A DNA stretch of 51,759 nt from Escherichia phage vB_EcoD_Fulano1. The position numbers and the translations under genes are program-made. Shown here piece after piece: positions 20,661 to 47,127 of this stretch (positions are counted from its first letter, which is position 1; each line of letters opens with the position of its first letter). The DNA is taken from the sequence record OL539459.1; one strand, 5' to 3'. Below the pieces are notes generated by a model that had not been told where the DNA came from, did no database searches, and was given only the letters and a program-made list of their open reading frames with translations.

Positions 20661-20690
20661 AAAAGGGGCTTTCGCCCCTTTATTTTTATT
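20661..20690. terminator. bidirectional intrinsic terminator
   Basis: A-run, stem GGGGC/GCCCC, T-run; between convergent genes. Confidence 0.7.
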
Positions 20691-20917
20691 TACAGACTGC
20701 AATCAGCGTTTTTAAAGTTATCAATACTTACCCACTGAAAATTAAACGGATAGCCAGCCTTAACAAGAGTGCGGTCGCCAACTCGTTTCACTCCGAAAAT
20801 AGCAACTGAATACTGCATTCCGCTATTTTCATAAATAGCCGTGCATTCACGTTTAGGCATATTTGCGCACCCAGTCAGGGTTACGGCTGCAATCAAAACG
20901 GCGATTAACTTTTTCAT
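20690..20917 (-). CDS. cor: lipoprotein, Cor-like superinfection exclusion candidate
   Basis: 75 aa, signal peptide MKKLIAVLIAAVTLTGC with lipobox, RBS AAGGAG; located after tail fibre genes as for cor in T1/phi80-type phages. Confidence 0.5.
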   Translation of the reverse strand: MKKLIAVLIAAVTLTGCANMPKRECTAIYENSGMQYSVAIFGVKRVGDRTLVKAGYPFNFQWVSIDNFKNADCSL

Positions 20918-20973: not shown

Positions 20974-20991
20974 TTTAGCAAAAAGTGCTAT
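20974..20991 (-). promoter_or_regulatory. recurrent element upstream of Cor-like gene
   Basis: on minus strand ATAGCACTTTTTGCTAAA then ~21 nt then TATAGT then RBS then ATG 20917. Confidence 0.45.
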
Positions 20992-21160
20992 TCTTGTTCT
21001 TTTTGTTATCCGGCGTTCTCAAATCTGCGGAGTCTTAAATTTAGCTCAAAAAGTGAACAACAATAGAGCGCAATACATACAGATAAATATATACATACAT
21101 ATAAATCAATAAGTTAGCAGTATATATATTCATGTTTGTTCTTTATTGTTATCTATGTTT

Positions 21161-21224
21161 TGTGTGATTTTGTGTGTCTGGTGATTTTTCTGTGATTATG
21201 CATGTGTCAGTGGTTATGTGTGTC
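21161..21224. repeat. phased TGTG/GTGATT short direct repeats (~10 bp period)
   Basis: TGTGTGATTT TGTGTGTCTG GTGATTTTTC TGTGATTATG CATGTGTCAG TGGTTATGTG TGTC. Confidence 0.5.
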
Positions 21225-21360
21225 TATATATCTATATCCGGCGCAAATTGAGGAACAAGAGAACAAAAAGACAACAAAGATATTTATCAATCACTTACAT
21301 GTAAGTTTTGTTATCAAAGCTGGCTAGAACGTTGCTAGAACAGAAAAAACAAAATAACTA

Positions 21361-21388
21361 TTGACTAAACGCATCAAATAGCTACAAT
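21361..21388 (+). promoter_or_regulatory. sigma70-like promoter TTGACT-16-TACAAT for recombination operon
   Basis: TTGACT 21361-21366, TACAAT 21383-21388, about 30 nt before ATG 21418. Confidence 0.55.
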
Positions 21389-21417
21389 GCAGACATACCA
21401 ACCAATGAGGGCAAATC

Positions 21418-22479
21418 ATGAATAAGTTTATGGCGTACACCAGCGAAGAAATGAGCAATGAGCTTTATCACGATCCAGAAGCGTGGACGGCTGATTATGT
21501 TAGCGGTTCAAGCCTGGCAGAGATTTACAGCACATGCCCGGCAGCGTGGAAGTTCAAGCCGCGTGACGACAAGAGCAAGGCGCTAGTTTTTGGTACGCAG
21601 TCGCATACCAACTTTGAAAGCAAGGAGCTTTTCGAAAAAACCTATCGCCGTGCGCCAGCACCAGAAGACTTTAAGGATCTGATAACCAGCCAAACGGCGC
21701 TTGCTGCAAAGCTGAAATCATTTGGCCTGAAAGGTACAACCGGAAAGACTTATCCCGAACTTATAAAAATGATGGTTGACTGCGGAGAAGACCTTAACGT
21801 CATGTGGTTAATCGACATGATCGCAGAAAGTCAGGCCAGGGCCGATGGGGTTCAGTTAATAGAGTCTAAAGATTACGATTCGTGCGTGGCAATGCGCCAG
21901 GTTCTGGAATCAATACCGGAACATAACGCATGTATGAATAGCAAGACGGCACAACGTGAATTATCGTTGTTCGGTGAAATTAACGGCGTAAAAGTCAAAG
22001 TGCGATGCGATCACGTTGACGTAACAAAGAACGTCACAGCAACGCTGATTGATGGTTACGATGAAAAAGGTCATCCGATTTGCCGCGATATTATTTATCC
22101 AGAGGCCATTGTGATCACAGACTACAAAACTACAATGAGCGCGAATCCGGCTGAGTTTATGCGCCTGGCTTACAATCACGGCTATTATTTGAAAATGGCG
22201 TTGCAATGTGATTTATTCAGAAAAGCGTATCCAGAAGAAAAGCGACCTATAGTTGTGCGACTGTTAGCGCAAGAGAAGAAAGAGCCTTATTTGCCGTTGG
22301 CTTTCCGCATGAACAGCGAGCAATTGAAGATCGGGCGCATTCAGTACATGAGCGTAATTAACCAGTTTGCCATGTGCCAGCAACATGACGTTTGGCCTTC
22401 GTATTCAAACGGCGAGCCGGAGGTTTGCCTTGATACTCCTGACTGGGTGCGACGCCAGTTTAAGCAATATCTTATTTAA
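21418..22479 (+). CDS. recombination exonuclease (PD-(D/E)xK family)
   Basis: 353 aa; motif VITDYKT; first gene of exo-Erf-SSB operon behind TTGACT-16-TACAAT promoter. Confidence 0.55.
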   Translation: MNKFMAYTSEEMSNELYHDPEAWTADYVSGSSLAEIYSTCPAAWKFKPRDDKSKALVFGTQSHTNFESKELFEKTYRRAPAPEDFKDLITSQTALAAKLKSFGLKGTTGKTYPELIKMMVDCGEDLNVMWLIDMIAESQARADGVQLIESKDYDSCVAMRQVLESIPEHNACMNSKTAQRELSLFGEINGVKVKVRCDHVDVTKNVTATLIDGYDEKGHPICRDIIYPEAIVITDYKTTMSANPAEFMRLAYNHGYYLKMALQCDLFRKAYPEEKRPIVVRLLAQEKKEPYLPLAFRMNSEQLKIGRIQYMSVINQFAMCQQHDVWPSYSNGEPEVCLDTPDWVRRQFKQYLI

Positions 22480-22560
22480 ACAGCACAAATAGCTAAACAA
22501 ATGAAAAATGCGGTGTTATAATTCACCGCATAAGTTAACAACAAGCGTAAGGAAATAAAC

Positions 22561-22839
22561 ATGGAAAACAAACAAGTGTCAGAGGTGGCAGTTCATATCA
22601 ATAATTTTGCAACTGGCATGGCTATGTTGCTTCGTGACTTTGTAGCGCCGCTTGATCCAACGGCAGGCGCAGAAGAAATGGAGTACATCAGAAAAGTAAT
22701 GGATGCAGTCGATAACGTCGTACTTGTTGCAACAATGAGCGAAGACAACGAGGAAGCAATCAAGGCGGTAAAAGAAAGTTCTGATCGCATGATGGAAAAT
22801 CTGATTAAATTACACACCAAAGAAGAAACAAAACATTAA
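22561..22839 (+). CDS. hypothetical acidic protein
   Basis: 92 aa, Asp/Glu-rich, between exonuclease and erf. Confidence 0.4.
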   Translation: MENKQVSEVAVHINNFATGMAMLLRDFVAPLDPTAGAEEMEYIRKVMDAVDNVVLVATMSEDNEEAIKAVKESSDRMMENLIKLHTKEETKH

Positions 22840-28984: not shown

Positions 28985-29458
28985 TTAGCAATTAGTGCTT
29001 TCAGGTTTATACAGGAATCCGCCAGGTTCATAATCTGACATTCTTACCACTCGCAACATTTCACGCTTATCACATCTCTTTGTGAGCGGTTTGCCATTGG
29101 AATCAAATCGCAGGTCTGGACGACAGAATGATGCGCGATAGCCTTGACATCCATATTTTTTGTAATCGTTATGCACCTTTTGAGCGCCAGCGGCTGAAAT
29201 CATACCACGAACGCGCCACTGATTTACAGTTTGCTGGCTAACGTTAAGACGTTTTGCCATTGCTGACACGCTTCCGTAATACTCAATAAGGATGTCAAGT
29301 CGCGCTTTTAGTCCGGCGCGCACTTCATCTTTTAAAACATAGTATCCCGTAGGGCGCTTGCGCTTCTTCTTGTCCTTGCCTCTTCGAGTTCCGTTATTGC
29401 CATTAATTGTGCGCTTGTCAATCTTTCCTGTTGATACTGCGATTCGTTGCTCTTTCAT
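28985..29458 (-). CDS. HTH DNA-binding protein (putative regulator)
   Basis: 157 aa; basic N-terminus RRGKDKKKRKRP; helix-turn-helix-like MAKRLNVSQQTVNQWR; divergent from helicase gene. Confidence 0.5.
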   Translation of the reverse strand: MKEQRIAVSTGKIDKRTINGNNGTRRGKDKKKRKRPTGYYVLKDEVRAGLKARLDILIEYYGSVSAMAKRLNVSQQTVNQWRVRGMISAAGAQKVHNDYKKYGCQGYRASFCRPDLRFDSNGKPLTKRCDKREMLRVVRMSDYEPGGFLYKPESTNC

Positions 29459-29471
29459 TATTCATTCTCCA

Positions 29472-29518
29472 ATAGCATTTTTTGTTAAACGATGATTTAA
29501 TGATTGTGTATTATACAC
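29472..29518 (+). promoter_or_regulatory. helicase promoter region: recurrent element plus 13-bp palindrome GTGTATTATACAC
   Basis: ATAGCATTTTTTGTTAAAC 29472-29490; perfect palindrome 29506-29518 overlapping -10-like TATTAT. Confidence 0.45.
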
Positions 29519-29547
29519 GCCAAATGGCATTACTCAAAGGTTTTAGA

Positions 29548-34812: not shown

Positions 34813-34884
34813 TTCCTTTTTGTGCGTTCAATGGTTAGGATACAATCAATTAATTGTTGACTTTTATCTACAGGAGATCTAATC

Positions 34885-35100
34885 ATGAAAGATTTTTTAA
34901 ACGCTGCAACTTCCGGCACTGGCGGCGCGTCAATCACTGGCGCGGTAACTGGTCAAACAACTATTGCAATAGCCAGCTTCGTTTTGATGGCTGCATTTGG
35001 TATGTGGGGAGCTTATCTTCGCTGGCGTGATAGTAAGGCGCTACGTGACGCGCTTGAATGCGGTGATATTAAGAAAGCTATTGAGATCAGAGGTAAATAA
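34885..35100 (+). CDS. holin
   Basis: 71 aa, hydrophobic helices, charged C-terminus, directly upstream of endolysin with ATGA overlap. Confidence 0.55.
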
Positions 35101-42057: not shown

Positions 42058-42113
42058 TTTTAAATCCTCGTTCGTTGTCGATGCGCATAATATACCAATC
42101 AGAGGCGCATCGG

Positions 42114-42927: not shown

Positions 42928-42975
42928 TGCTATCTCCTGATGGCTATCTCGTTTCGATGAGATAACTATACCAGG

Positions 42976-43212
42976 TTATTCCGATCGCGCTTTAACAAAA
43001 AGTGCTATTTGCTGACTGGTCATTATTCCATCTATTCCATTAATCAGGAATAACAGGAATAATTCATTCGCGATCACCTGGATTGTGAGACTTTGAGTTT
43101 GATCAATTTTAATCAGTTGATTAACTTTTTGTGTGGAGGGGATAGAGAAACGCGGCCCTCTTGCGTCCTTTCCAGCAATCCTGGCGCGCGCATCTGTTAT
43201 TTCTGTTCCCAA
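42976..43212 (-). CDS. questionable ORF (may be non-coding leader)
   Basis: 78 aa; contains dyad repeat 43022-43063 and recurrent element 42991-43008. Confidence 0.2.
   Translation of the reverse strand: MGTEITDARARIAGKDARGPRFSIPSTQKVNQLIKIDQTQSLTIQVIANELFLLFLINGIDGIMTSQQIALFVKARSE
42991..43008 (-). promoter_or_regulatory. recurrent element ATAGCACTTTTTGTTAAA
   Basis: ~70 nt upstream of ATG 42927; not at a stop codon here. Confidence 0.35.
43022..43063. repeat. dyad-symmetric element with ATTCC/GGAAT half-sites
   Basis: ATTATTCC (43022-43029), ATTCC (43034-43038), centre ATTAAT, GGAAT (43047-43051), GGAATAAT (43056-43063). Confidence 0.5.
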
Positions 43213-43549
43213 TGTTATCTCAAATAAGCCTCCGCACTTTTAGATAACAGAAACGGCGTTCATCAACAAAAAGAACAAAATAAAATTTATATATATACCC
43301 ATAAAATCAATAAGTTAGTTATATATGTATTTATATTTGTTATTTACTGTTATGCTTGTTCTGTGGGTATGTGGTGGGTGTTGATGATTCCTTCATTTAA
43401 CATTTGTACTTTTTATGCGGTTATATATATAGATTTTGCGGCATTATCGAGACAACCAGTGAACGAGATTGAACGAGCTTTAAAATCAATCACTTGCGCG
43501 CAATTTTGTTATCGCGTCAAAAAAAGATGTTATTAGAACGAAAAATCAG

Positions 43550-43578
43550 TTGACTACCTGGCTGTGAGTATTGATAAT
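43550..43578 (+). promoter_or_regulatory. sigma70-like promoter TTGACT-17-GATAAT for rightward early operon
   Basis: TTGACT 43550-43555, GATAAT 43573-43578, 33 nt before ATG 43611. Confidence 0.55.
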
Positions 43579-43610
43579 GCACGCAGACAAAACGAAAAGG
43601 GAGACAGCAC

Positions 43611-43910
43611 ATGACAAAAATGCTTGCAATAAACCGAAAACTTGAAGTGAAAGAGATGTCACAAGATGATATTGATGATTTGGCGCGCGGCATGACAACA
43701 GGTTACATGCGGAGAATTGTCAATCACTTGATTAACTCTGAACGAAATAAGGCCGTATACATCAGCATAAATCACGCTGGAGGGAATGCTGCATCAATGC
43801 GACAGATGATTAACAACGTGGCAAAAGAGTTAAATGTTGATGTTAAGACGTTTGTTGTTGATGGATTCCTGGGCCTGGTAATACTTGAAGTTAACGAAGC
43901 GTTTGCATAA
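43611..43910 (+). CDS. hypothetical early protein
   Basis: 99 aa, first gene behind TTGACT-17-GATAAT promoter, RBS AAGGGAG. Confidence 0.4.
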   Translation: MTKMLAINRKLEVKEMSQDDIDDLARGMTTGYMRRIVNHLINSERNKAVYISINHAGGNAASMRQMINNVAKELNVDVKTFVVDGFLGLVILEVNEAFA

Positions 43911-45638: not shown

Positions 45639-45658
45639 ATAGCACGAATTGTTAAAAC
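45639..45658 (+). promoter_or_regulatory. recurrent element, GAATT variant ATAGCACGAATTGTTAAAAC
   Basis: follows stop TAA; TATAAT 45676-45681 in loop of GGCC stem. Confidence 0.45.
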
Positions 45659-45711
45659 TCAAATGTGGGGCCAGGTATAATGGCCTCACTTTCAACGAAG
45701 GAGATAAAACG

Positions 45712-47072: not shown

Positions 47073-47127
47073 ACATTATCGGGCTTGCGGTATAGTAAGC
47101 CCATCGACAACAAGCGAGGATTAAATC

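What the first reader, a model, noticed from the sequence alone, without database searches (positions are those of the whole stretch)
21090..21400. Divergent control region A is homologous to a second region 22 kb away (43290-43600)
Both regions lie between a leftward gene start (cor-like 20917; ORF 43212) and a rightward operon (21418; 43611). Shared blocks in the same order and spacing: AAATCAATAAGTTAG (21103-21117 and 43304-43318) in an AT-rich tract; GT-rich phased repeats; ATCAATCACTT + short palindrome + TTTTGTTATC (21287-21316 and 43485-43513); a TAGAACG segment; and a TTGACT -35 with TACAAT/GATAAT -10. This looks like a duplicated early promoter/operator or origin-like module driving two separate early operons.
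Basis: seen in the sequence. Interest (0 to 1): 0.7.

Follow-up and report, generated by a model that had tools for sequence, protein, structure and literature searches.

The report
Duplicated IHF-site early control module
This T1-like coliphage carries two related ~425-bp non-coding modules, each ending in a strong host-type promoter and built around two consensus binding sites for the DNA-bending host protein IHF, the most easily melted DNA in the genome and arrays of short repeats. They are most likely paired early-gene control regions and are also the best candidates yet for the family's unidentified replication origins.

Summary
Region A (21050-21420) and region B (43250-43615) align at 66% identity over 297 columns (blastn E 9e-25). 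The local alignment score is 71, against 12±1.6 for dinucleotide shuffles and 19±3.8 for shuffles that keep local composition. No other place in the window scores above 26.

The window is a complete Hanrivervirus genome (Drexlerviridae, T1-like). The homology extends to about 425 bp in each copy: A 20991-21417 and B 43185-43610.

Each module contains, in order:
- phased TGTT(A/C)T arrays
- TA tract, IHF1, TA tract (the two least stable 60-100-bp stretches in the genome)
- a second array and a variable GT-rich spacer
- inverted arrays, then IHF2
- an A-rich tract and TTGACT-16/17-TAnAAT

The A/B pair exists in four subfamilies (T1, TLS, Rtp, Rogue1). The repeat motif differs between lineages, but the order of elements is kept. 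IHF2 is helically phased with the -35 hexamer in 39 of 44 relatives and is inverted in the T1 group.

The short palindrome is not conserved, and ORF 43212 is probably spurious. The T1 pac-equivalent lies just left of module B, outside the shared part.

Best reading: paired IHF-shaped early promoter control regions. A dual replication origin is the main rival, and the two are not mutually exclusive. All function is inferred.

The parts
20974..20991 (-). Copy of the T1-family 21-nt direct repeat (ATAGCACTTTTTGCTAAA, perfect dyad TAGCA-N5-TGCTA). It faces the cor gene (start 20917) and flanks module A on the left. It is not part of the A/B homology.
20991..21020 (+). Module A, left array: TTGTTC / TTGTTAT / CGTTCT units 9-10 bp apart
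21053..21066 (-). Module A, inverted units (GAACAACAA)
21083..21132 (+). Module A core: TA tract, IHF1 (AATCAATAAGTTA, 21104-21116), TA tract. 21073-21132 is the second least stable 60-bp stretch in the genome (z 4.3).
21133..21161 (+). Module A, central array: TGTTC 21137, TGTTA 21147, TGTTT 21156
21162..21224 (+). Module A, GT-rich spacer. Its sequence and length vary among relatives (30-bp indels; a 220-bp insertion in phage 2019SD1).
21225..21279 (-). Module A: third TA tract, conserved GGCGCAAAT, then inverted array GAACAAG / GAACAAA / GACAACA
21285..21297 (+). Module A, IHF2 (TATCAATCACTTA). The inferred bend centre is 77 bp upstream of the -35 hexamer.
21293..21306 (.). 14-bp palindrome ACTTACATGTAAGT. 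It is not conserved and is probably incidental.
21306..21356 (+). Module A: TTTTGTTATC unit, TAGAACG/TAGAACAG units and an A-rich UP-like tract
21361..21388 (+). Promoter P_A: TTGACT, 16 nt, TACAAT. It drives recE (ATG 21418), a 92-aa ORF, erf and ssb.
42991..43008 (-). 21-nt direct repeat copy facing the first leftward gene (start 42927)
43023..43130 (.). B-only insert: inverted repeat TTATTCC...GGAATAA (43023-43062) and the segment that aligns with T1 genome position 1 (pac; about 43085-43110). It includes a further IHF consensus on the minus strand (43110-43122).
43192..43281 (+). Module B: left array (TGTTA 43195, TGTTC 43204, TGTTA 43213), followed by inverted units (GATAACA 43243, AGAACAA 43272)
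43284..43335 (+). Module B core: TA tract, IHF1 (AATCAATAAGTTA, 43305-43317), TA tract. 43277-43336 is the least stable 60-bp stretch in the genome (z 4.9).
43336..43363 (+). Module B, central array: TGTTA 43338, TGTTA 43348, TGTTC 43357
43364..43419 (+). Module B, GT-rich/variable spacer. In most relatives the similarity to this window's B stops at about 43377 (mosaic breakpoint).
43420..43478 (-). Module B: third TA tract and inverted units (GACAACC, GTGAACG, TTGAACG)
43484..43496 (+). Module B, IHF2 (AATCAATCACTTG). The inferred bend centre is 67 bp upstream of the -35 hexamer.
43504..43547 (+). Module B: TTTTGTTATC, TGTTAT, TAGAACG units and an A-rich tract
43550..43578 (+). Promoter P_B: TTGACT, 17 nt, GATAAT. 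It drives the rightward block of small early genes (ATG 43611).

Best explanation
A and B are two paralogous copies of a ~425-bp cis-acting control module that is conserved across the family Drexlerviridae.

Proposed mechanism, all inferred:
1. On infection, host RNA polymerase with sigma-70 fires the promoter at the right end of each module. P_A expresses the recE-erf-ssb recombination genes. P_B expresses the block of small early genes.
2. Host IHF binds IHF2, about 110 bp upstream of the inferred start site and on a fixed face of the helix. It folds the upstream DNA back towards the polymerase.
3. IHF1, embedded in the easily melted TA core, adds a second sharp bend. The whole module becomes a compact nucleoprotein complex.
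4. The phased 6-7-bp arrays that bracket the core and IHF2 are docking sites for an unidentified, lineage-specific and presumably phage-encoded protein. This protein tunes or shuts off both early promoters together.

Shown here: the homology, the consensus matches, the conservation pattern, the helical phasing, the low duplex stability and the lineage-specific arrays. Inferred: IHF binding, promoter timing and the role of the arrays.
For: - Homology far above chance.
- Promoters match 10 of 12 consensus positions. TTGAC is kept in 44 of 45 RecE-linked loci. The TLS counterparts are two of the only three sigma-70 promoters predicted by the TLS authors.
- The IHF core consensus occurs twice per module, against 0.08-0.09 expected from shuffles of the module itself (P ~0.005 each). 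Genome-wide there are 12 matches against 4.8±2.1 expected.
- Phylogenetic footprint of IHF2: ATCA and (C)TTA are invariant while the N positions vary. This holds in 20 distinct Tempevirinae sequences and in 12 distinct T1-group sequences, where the site is inverted.
- The distance from the inferred bend centre to the -35 hexamer is 77-80 bp (forward sites), 66-67 bp (inverted sites) and 67 bp in module B. These differ by about one helical turn. 39 of 44 loci have the site.
- The TA/IHF1 cores rank first and second for lowest duplex stability at both 60 and 100 bp.
- TGTTATC and TTGTTCT cluster only in A and B: 11 of their 28 occurrences lie in 1.7% of the genome.
- T1 uses TGTAACA instead (5 copies in its modules, 0 elsewhere) with the same order and orientation of elements.
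- In T1, TLS, Rtp and Rogue1 the best within-genome match of the A-equivalent is the B-equivalent, at 35-83 against a median of 11.
- In this window, T1 and Rtp, the A and B copies of one genome are more alike than A is to the A-equivalent of another subfamily. This points to a shared trans-acting factor or to gene conversion.
Against: - No experimental transcription start, IHF-binding or timing data were found for any T1-like phage.
- The third early sigma-70 promoter (minus strand, 29537-29510, upstream of the Cro-like regulator and primase) has no such module. The module is therefore not needed for basal early promoter activity.
- The best-conserved part of the module lies 150-400 bp upstream of the promoter, which is unusually far for a promoter element in a compact phage genome.
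- In Rogue1 the right end of module A carries a direct-repeat-type promoter rather than TTGACT.
- IHF1 is only a degenerate match in T1, TLS-A and Rogue1.
- The protein that binds the arrays is unidentified. The one recognisable HTH regulator shows no co-variation with the array motif.
Confidence: 0.45

Rival explanations
1. The distal ~250 bp of each module (arrays, TA core with IHF1, arrays) is a replication origin, giving the phage two related origins or an origin plus a cis-enhancer. An unidentified lineage-specific initiator reads the arrays, IHF bends the DNA, and the TA core melts to let the phage helicase and primase load. The adjacent promoter provides transcriptional activation. This reading is compatible with the promoter function described above.
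For: - The cores are the least stable DNA in the genome.
- Phased short repeats occur in direct and inverted sets on both sides of the core and nowhere else. They co-vary with lineage in both copies.
- The distal half is the part best conserved between A and B and across genera.
- Its spacing to the promoter half is flexible, with 30-220-bp indels.
- The third early promoter lacks the module.
- The phage encodes a primase and two helicases, yet no origin is known. The TLS authors looked for one and did not find it.
- There is precedent for two origins in a pac-type siphovirus: SPP1 oriL and oriR are 32.1 kb apart.
Against: - No initiator-type domain (lambda O, SPP1 G38P, RepA) was found in the 20 replication and early proteins scanned.
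- There is no DnaA box with one mismatch or fewer and no GATC cluster.
- The units are only 6-7 bp, shorter than classical iterons.
- No plasmid carries a related sequence.
- GC skew simply follows transcription direction.
- A leftward fork from A would meet the tail genes head-on.
Confidence: 0.33
2. The modules are terminase recognition (pac-type) regions. The arrays bind the small terminase subunit and IHF bends the DNA, as at lambda cosB or P1 pac. B is the working pac site and A is a secondary or vestigial one.
For: - The T1 and TLS records start, at or near their mapped pac sites, inside the B-equivalent intergenic region.
- B carries extra IHF consensus sites and inverted repeats next to the pac-equivalent.
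Against: - T1 position 1 aligns to about 43085-43110. That lies in a B-only insert, 80-100 bp left of where the A/B homology begins.
- A sits mid-genome, and restriction analysis of TLS shows a single submolar pac fragment.
- Both modules keep a promoter with an IHF site phased to it, which a pac role does not explain.
Confidence: 0.05
3. The similarity is a relic of an old duplication, kept alike by gene conversion through the phage's own RecE/Erf system. Only the promoters are functional. The IHF matches, TA tracts and arrays have no specific role.
For: A and B copies within a genome are more alike than A copies from different subfamilies, as gene conversion would produce. The phage encodes an efficient recombination system.
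Against: - The order of elements is kept across four subfamilies even though the repeat motif itself has changed.
- Variation in IHF2 is confined to the non-consensus positions, and helical phase is kept after the site is inverted.
- These are signs of selection rather than drift.
Confidence: 0.07

Closest known systems
IHF-stimulated phage early promoters (lambda pL with its upstream IHF sites; Mu Pe) - from my own knowledge
   Same: A strong sigma-70 early promoter of a phage with one or two IHF sites in the upstream 80-200 bp, flanked by A/T-rich DNA. The bend is thought to bring upstream DNA to the polymerase.
   Different: Here the sites lie further upstream (about -110 and -290). They are flanked by arrays of a lineage-specific repeat, and the whole unit is duplicated 22 kb apart. 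IHF dependence has not been tested.
ilvPG upstream activating sequence of E. coli (IHF site inside a supercoiling-destabilised A/T-rich region) - from my own knowledge
   Same: An IHF site embedded in the locally least stable DNA upstream of a sigma-70 promoter. This offers a way for IHF binding to shift duplex opening towards the -10 region.
   Different: The destabilised core here is about 290 bp from the start site rather than about 90 bp, and a second IHF site lies in between.
SPP1 oriL/oriR (PMC3561973); P4 ori/crr (my own knowledge)
   Same: Two related cis-elements tens of kilobases (SPP1) or kilobases (P4) apart in one phage genome. Each has short repeats for the initiator next to A/T-rich DNA.
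   Different: No homologue of G38P or of the P4 alpha origin-binding domain was detected. Replication from these sites is unproven.
Iteron origins that use IHF (pSC101, R6K gamma) - from my own knowledge
   Same: An IHF site between an A/T-rich unwinding region and arrays of directly repeated protein sites, with inverted copies overlapping a nearby promoter.
   Different: The units are 6-7 bp rather than 18-22 bp. There is no DnaA box and no Rep gene downstream.
Promoters P01 and P51 predicted in phage TLS (PMC11447400, Suppl. Table S1)
   Same: These are the orthologous promoters of modules B and A in TLS.
   Different: That paper lists only the -35/-10 strings. It does not mention the upstream homology, the IHF sites, the TA cores or the arrays, and it states that no origin-like repeats were found.

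Membership tests
E. coli IHF binding site | 13-bp core WATCAANNNNTTR | tested here: met
   Exact matches at 21104, 21285, 43305 and 43484, all on the + strand. Two per module against 0.08-0.09 expected from module shuffles.
E. coli IHF binding site | A/T-rich tract 5' of the core (H'-type sites; my own knowledge) | tested here: met
   IHF1 in both modules is preceded by about 20 bp of TA-rich DNA. IHF2 is preceded by A-rich DNA.
E. coli IHF binding site | Selection on consensus positions only | tested here: met
   In the entropy profile, ATCA and TTA are invariant and the N positions vary, in both the forward and the inverted groups.
E. coli IHF binding site | Binding and bending by IHF protein | not testable with these tools
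   Needs gel shift, footprinting or ChIP.
Sigma-70 promoter | -35 and -10 hexamers with a 16-18-nt spacer | tested here: met
   TTGACT/16/TACAAT and TTGACT/17/GATAAT, each 10 of 12. Conserved in relatives.
Sigma-70 promoter | Mapped transcription start, early timing | not testable with these tools
   No transcript data found.
Iteron-type replication origin | A/T-rich DNA unwinding element | tested here: met
   The two cores are the least stable 60- and 100-bp stretches of the genome, z 4.3-4.9.
Iteron-type replication origin | Arrays of repeated initiator-binding sites | tested here: inconclusive
   Phased 6-7-bp units are confined to A and B. They are shorter than classical iterons and their binder is unknown.
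Iteron-type replication origin | Cognate origin-binding initiator encoded by the replicon | tested here: not met
   No lambda O, G38P or Rep domain in the 20 proteins scanned. Only a primase, a DUF3987 helicase, an SF2 helicase and a Cro-like HTH were found.
Iteron-type replication origin | DnaA boxes (present in many but not all such origins) | tested here: not met
   No TTWTNCACA with one mismatch or fewer in either region.
Iteron-type replication origin | Initiation of replication at the site | not testable with these tools
   Needs marker-frequency analysis, 2D gels or origin cloning.
pac / terminase recognition site | Coincides with the packaging start (genome end) | tested here: not met
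   T1 position 1 aligns to about 43085-43110, left of the shared module. Module A is internal.
T1-family 21-nt direct repeat (TLS paper) | Consensus aaATAGCACnnnTTGnTAAAA | tested here: not met
   The window has 19 copies. One flanks each module on the minus strand (20974-20991; 42991-43008), but none of the shared A/B blocks matches the consensus.

The most novel reading that the evidence does not exclude
The distal block of each module (lineage-specific arrays on both sides of an IHF site set in the genome's most meltable DNA) is the replication origin of T1-like phages, for which I found no published identification. It would be present as two co-evolving copies, comparable to SPP1 oriL/oriR or P4 ori/crr, and read by an initiator that has not yet been recognised among the phage's proteins.
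Probability: 0.3. Interest if true: 0.65.

Novelty: new variant of a known kind. Interest (0 to 1): 0.5.

Why it matters
T1 is one of the classic T phages, and its relatives are common in phage therapy collections and as fermentation contaminants. In the literature I could search, their origin of replication and the control of their early genes are not described. The 2024 TLS re-annotation states that no origin-like repeats were found.

This analysis gives defined, testable targets:
- four IHF sites
- two unwinding-prone cores
- a set of repeat arrays whose motif changes with lineage, which predicts an unknown DNA-binding protein

It also predicts that IHF is a host factor for this family.

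The work is entirely computational, and the element types (IHF sites, sigma-70 promoters, A/T-rich cores) are familiar. The surprise is therefore moderate.

Tried and rejected
- **15-mer scan of IMG/VR.** The scan for AAATCAATAAGTTAG returned mostly unrelated contigs by chance and was not used.
- **pac hypothesis.** Rejected for the shared module, because T1 position 1 aligns to a B-only insert.
- **Host replication/recombination motifs.** No DnaA boxes, Chi sites or GATC clusters.
- **Other databases.** No Rfam family and no plasmid homologue.
- **Palindrome as a conserved hairpin.** It decays among close relatives and is absent elsewhere.
- **Cro-like HTH (28985-29458, minus strand) as the array binder.** Its recognition-helix differences do not track the array motif across the window, TLS, T1 and Rtp. 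The family-wide 21-nt dyad repeat is a better target for it.
- **DUF3987 helicase as a lineage-specific binder.** It is uniformly conserved, with no swapped domain.
- **First genes flanking module B as binders.** They are not homologous between lineages.
- **Presence/absence screen across five genomes.** It pointed to the 92-aa ORF 22561-22839, but that protein is acidic and helical, so it is unlikely to bind DNA.
- **A-tract phasing as a sign of intrinsic curvature.** High in the proximal half of A (z 5.5) but unremarkable in B (z 2.5), so it is not a shared property.
- **GC skew.** It follows transcription direction only.
- **Papers not held by the library.** The Rtp genome paper could not be retrieved, and I did not look up the 2004 T1 genome paper. 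Either may mention these regions.

Full report
**What the window is.** The region around A is 94-97% identical to Shigella phage pSf-1, Escherichia phage KarlJaspers and other Hanrivervirus genomes (Drexlerviridae, Tempevirinae). The window is a whole T1-like genome opened at the small terminase gene. Region A lies between the cor gene (20690-20917, minus strand) and recE (21418), which is followed by erf and ssb. Region B lies between a leftward block of small genes and a rightward block of small early genes that includes kinases.

**Checking the observation.**
- The two regions align at 66% identity over 297 columns (blastn E 9e-25). Nothing else in the window comes close.
- The local alignment score is 71, against 12.2±1.6 for dinucleotide shuffles and 19±3.8 for shuffles that keep composition in 20-bp blocks.
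- Every other 366-bp window of the genome, on either strand, scores 26 or less.
- The similarity is therefore homology, not composition. It runs further left than stated, giving modules of about 425 bp: A 20991-21417 and B 43185-43610.

**Anatomy.** Both exact shared blocks match the core consensus for E. coli IHF, WATCAANNNNTTR:
- IHF1: AATCAATAAGTTA at 21104 and 43305
- IHF2: TATCAATCACTTA at 21285 and AATCAATCACTTG at 43484

Two matches per module compare with 0.08-0.09 expected from shuffles of the module itself.

IHF1 sits between TA tracts. These cores are the two least stable 60-bp and 100-bp stretches of the genome (z 4.3-4.9).

Around them lie arrays of TGTT(A/C)T units spaced 9-10 bp apart, in forward sets (20995/21004/21014; 21137/21147/21156; 43195/43204/43213; 43338/43348/43357) and in inverted sets. 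TGTTATC and TTGTTCT cluster nowhere else in the genome.

A GT-rich spacer separates a distal half from a proximal half. The proximal half holds a third TA tract, inverted units, IHF2, TTTTGTTATC, an A-rich tract and a promoter matching 10 of 12 consensus positions.

**Left flanks.** Each module has, to its left and on the minus strand, one copy of the family's 21-nt direct repeat facing the leftward gene (20974-20991; 42991-43008). No sigma-70-type promoter faces left.

ORF 42976-43212 is unlikely to be a gene. It has no PHROG hit, it contains that repeat, and BEK7 annotates nothing there. Region B therefore spans 42928-43610.

Between the direct repeat and the module, B has a ~175-bp insert that is absent from A. 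It contains an inverted repeat (TTATTCC...GGAATAA, 43023-43062). It is homologous to the part of T1 that contains genome position 1, the pac end; the equivalent in this window is about 43085-43110.

**Comparative evidence.**
- I recovered 45 RecE-linked loci with 62-99% protein identity. Their upstream regions keep the same order of elements.
- IHF2 shows a clean footprint: ATCA and (C)TTA are invariant and the N positions vary. In the T1 group the site is on the opposite strand.
- The distance from the inferred bend centre to the -35 hexamer is 77-80 bp for forward sites, 66-67 bp for inverted sites and 67 bp in module B. These steps equal about one helical turn. 39 of 44 loci carry the site.
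- The palindrome after IHF2 decays among close relatives.
- The GT-rich spacer takes 30-bp indels and, in phage 2019SD1, a 220-bp insertion. Most relatives share only the left half of this window's B, up to about 43377, yet their right halves keep the same layout.
- In T1, TLS, Rtp and Rogue1 (four subfamilies) the best within-genome match of the A-equivalent is the B-equivalent, at 35-83 against a median of 11.
- In this window, T1 and Rtp, A resembles B of the same genome more than it resembles A of another subfamily.
- The repeat motif is lineage-specific. T1 has TGTAACA/TGTTACA five times in its modules and nowhere else, and Rtp and Rogue1 use GTAAC/GTATAC. The order and orientation of the sets are the same.
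- This pattern points to a phage-encoded protein that reads both copies, to gene conversion between them, or to both.

**Literature.** The 2024 TLS paper reports that no origin-like repeats were found. It also reports that only three sigma-70 promoters could be predicted. Its supplementary table shows that two of these are the TLS counterparts of P_B and P_A. The third lies upstream of the Cro-like regulator and primase.

The window equivalent of that third promoter (minus strand, 29537-29510) has no module. Searches combining T1, Drexlerviridae, IHF, origin and transcriptome found nothing further. The Rtp genome paper is not held by the library, and I did not look up the 2004 T1 genome paper.

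**Interpretation.** The proximal half is most simply an IHF-assisted early promoter. The constant helical phase of IHF2 through an inversion ties that site to the promoter.

The distal half is harder to assign. It is the best-conserved part, it is separable from the promoter half, it is absent from the third early promoter, and it has the anatomy of an origin (meltable core, IHF site, flanking repeat arrays). However, no initiator-type protein, DnaA box or plasmid relative was found.

I rate a purely transcriptional control role at 0.45 and an origin role at 0.33. An origin role could coexist with the promoter function. A pac role is unlikely because the pac-equivalent lies outside the shared sequence. 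Neutral decay of an old duplication is unlikely given the footprints.

**Novelty.** The component types are familiar. What I did not find described is their combination as a duplicated, co-evolving module across a whole phage family. I file it as a new variant of known kinds (IHF-dependent phage promoter; dual phage origins such as SPP1 oriL/oriR).

Noticed in passing
window, 19 sites, e.g. 20974-20991(-), 22480-22497(+), 29472-29489(+), 42991-43008(-), 45639-45656(+); also T1 (L003), TLS (L004), Rtp (L172), Rogue1 (L173): The 21-nt direct repeat that the TLS paper lists as an open question occurs 19 times here (0.7 expected). It is a dyad, TAGCA-N5-TG(C/T)TA, with 0-1 mismatch between half-sites in 17 of 19 copies. 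Its consensus is the same in five genomes of four subfamilies. A -10-like hexamer follows 19-21 nt after the repeat, which puts the dyad centre about 41 bp upstream of the inferred start. That is the geometry of a class II activator site. The conserved Cro-like HTH protein (28985-29458, minus strand), made from an early sigma-70 promoter, is an obvious candidate activator.
   Followed up: partly
window, downstream of the direct repeats, e.g. 22508-22531, 45669-45685, 47081-47102, 42078-42111: In many direct-repeat promoters the -10-like hexamer lies in the loop of, or directly next to, a GC-rich inverted repeat whose sequence differs from copy to copy (e.g. GCGGTGttataattCACCGC, GGGCTTgcggtatagtAAGCCC). 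Stems of 5 bp or more occur in 74% of copies against 33% of random 48-mers, and stems of 6 bp or more in 37% against 11%. Function unknown.
   Followed up: partly
window 29472-29537: The early promoter of the Cro-like regulator (minus strand: -35 at 29537-29532, -10 at 29515-29510) and the direct-repeat promoter of the helicase (repeat at 29472-29489, -10-like at 29509-29514) overlap face to face. The repeat lies at about +15 to +30 of the regulator's own transcript. One protein bound there could switch on the helicase gene and repress its own gene.
   Followed up: no
window 43023-43130: This is a B-only segment homologous to the T1 region that contains genome position 1 (pac). It holds a nested inverted repeat TTATTCC-ATC-TATTCC...GGAATA-ACA-GGAATAA, the dyad TAATCA-GT-TGATTA and an IHF consensus on the minus strand (43110-43122). 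It is a candidate packaging start for this phage.
   Followed up: partly
L167 2458-2677 (Shigella phage 2019SD1, MT360681): A ~220-bp insertion sits inside the GT-rich spacer of module A in this relative. Its content was not examined.
   Followed up: no
window 34844-34870: A further IHF consensus (AATCAATTAATTG) directly abuts a TTGACT hexamer upstream of the ORF starting at 34885, in one of the least stable stretches of the genome. This may be another IHF-linked promoter.
   Followed up: no
GenBank records MG0656xx ('Campylobacter phage A1xx'): About 20 records labelled as Campylobacter jejuni phages are 94-96% identical to this coliphage over region A and the structural genes. The host label is probably wrong, or the records come from contaminating T1-like coliphages.
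   Followed up: no
window 22561-22839(+): A 92-aa acidic, helical ORF lies between recE and erf. It is present in TLS (36% identity) but absent from T1, Rtp and Rogue1, and it has no family match. In the TLS RefSeq record its counterpart is labelled a tape measure protein, which is probably wrong.
   Followed up: partly
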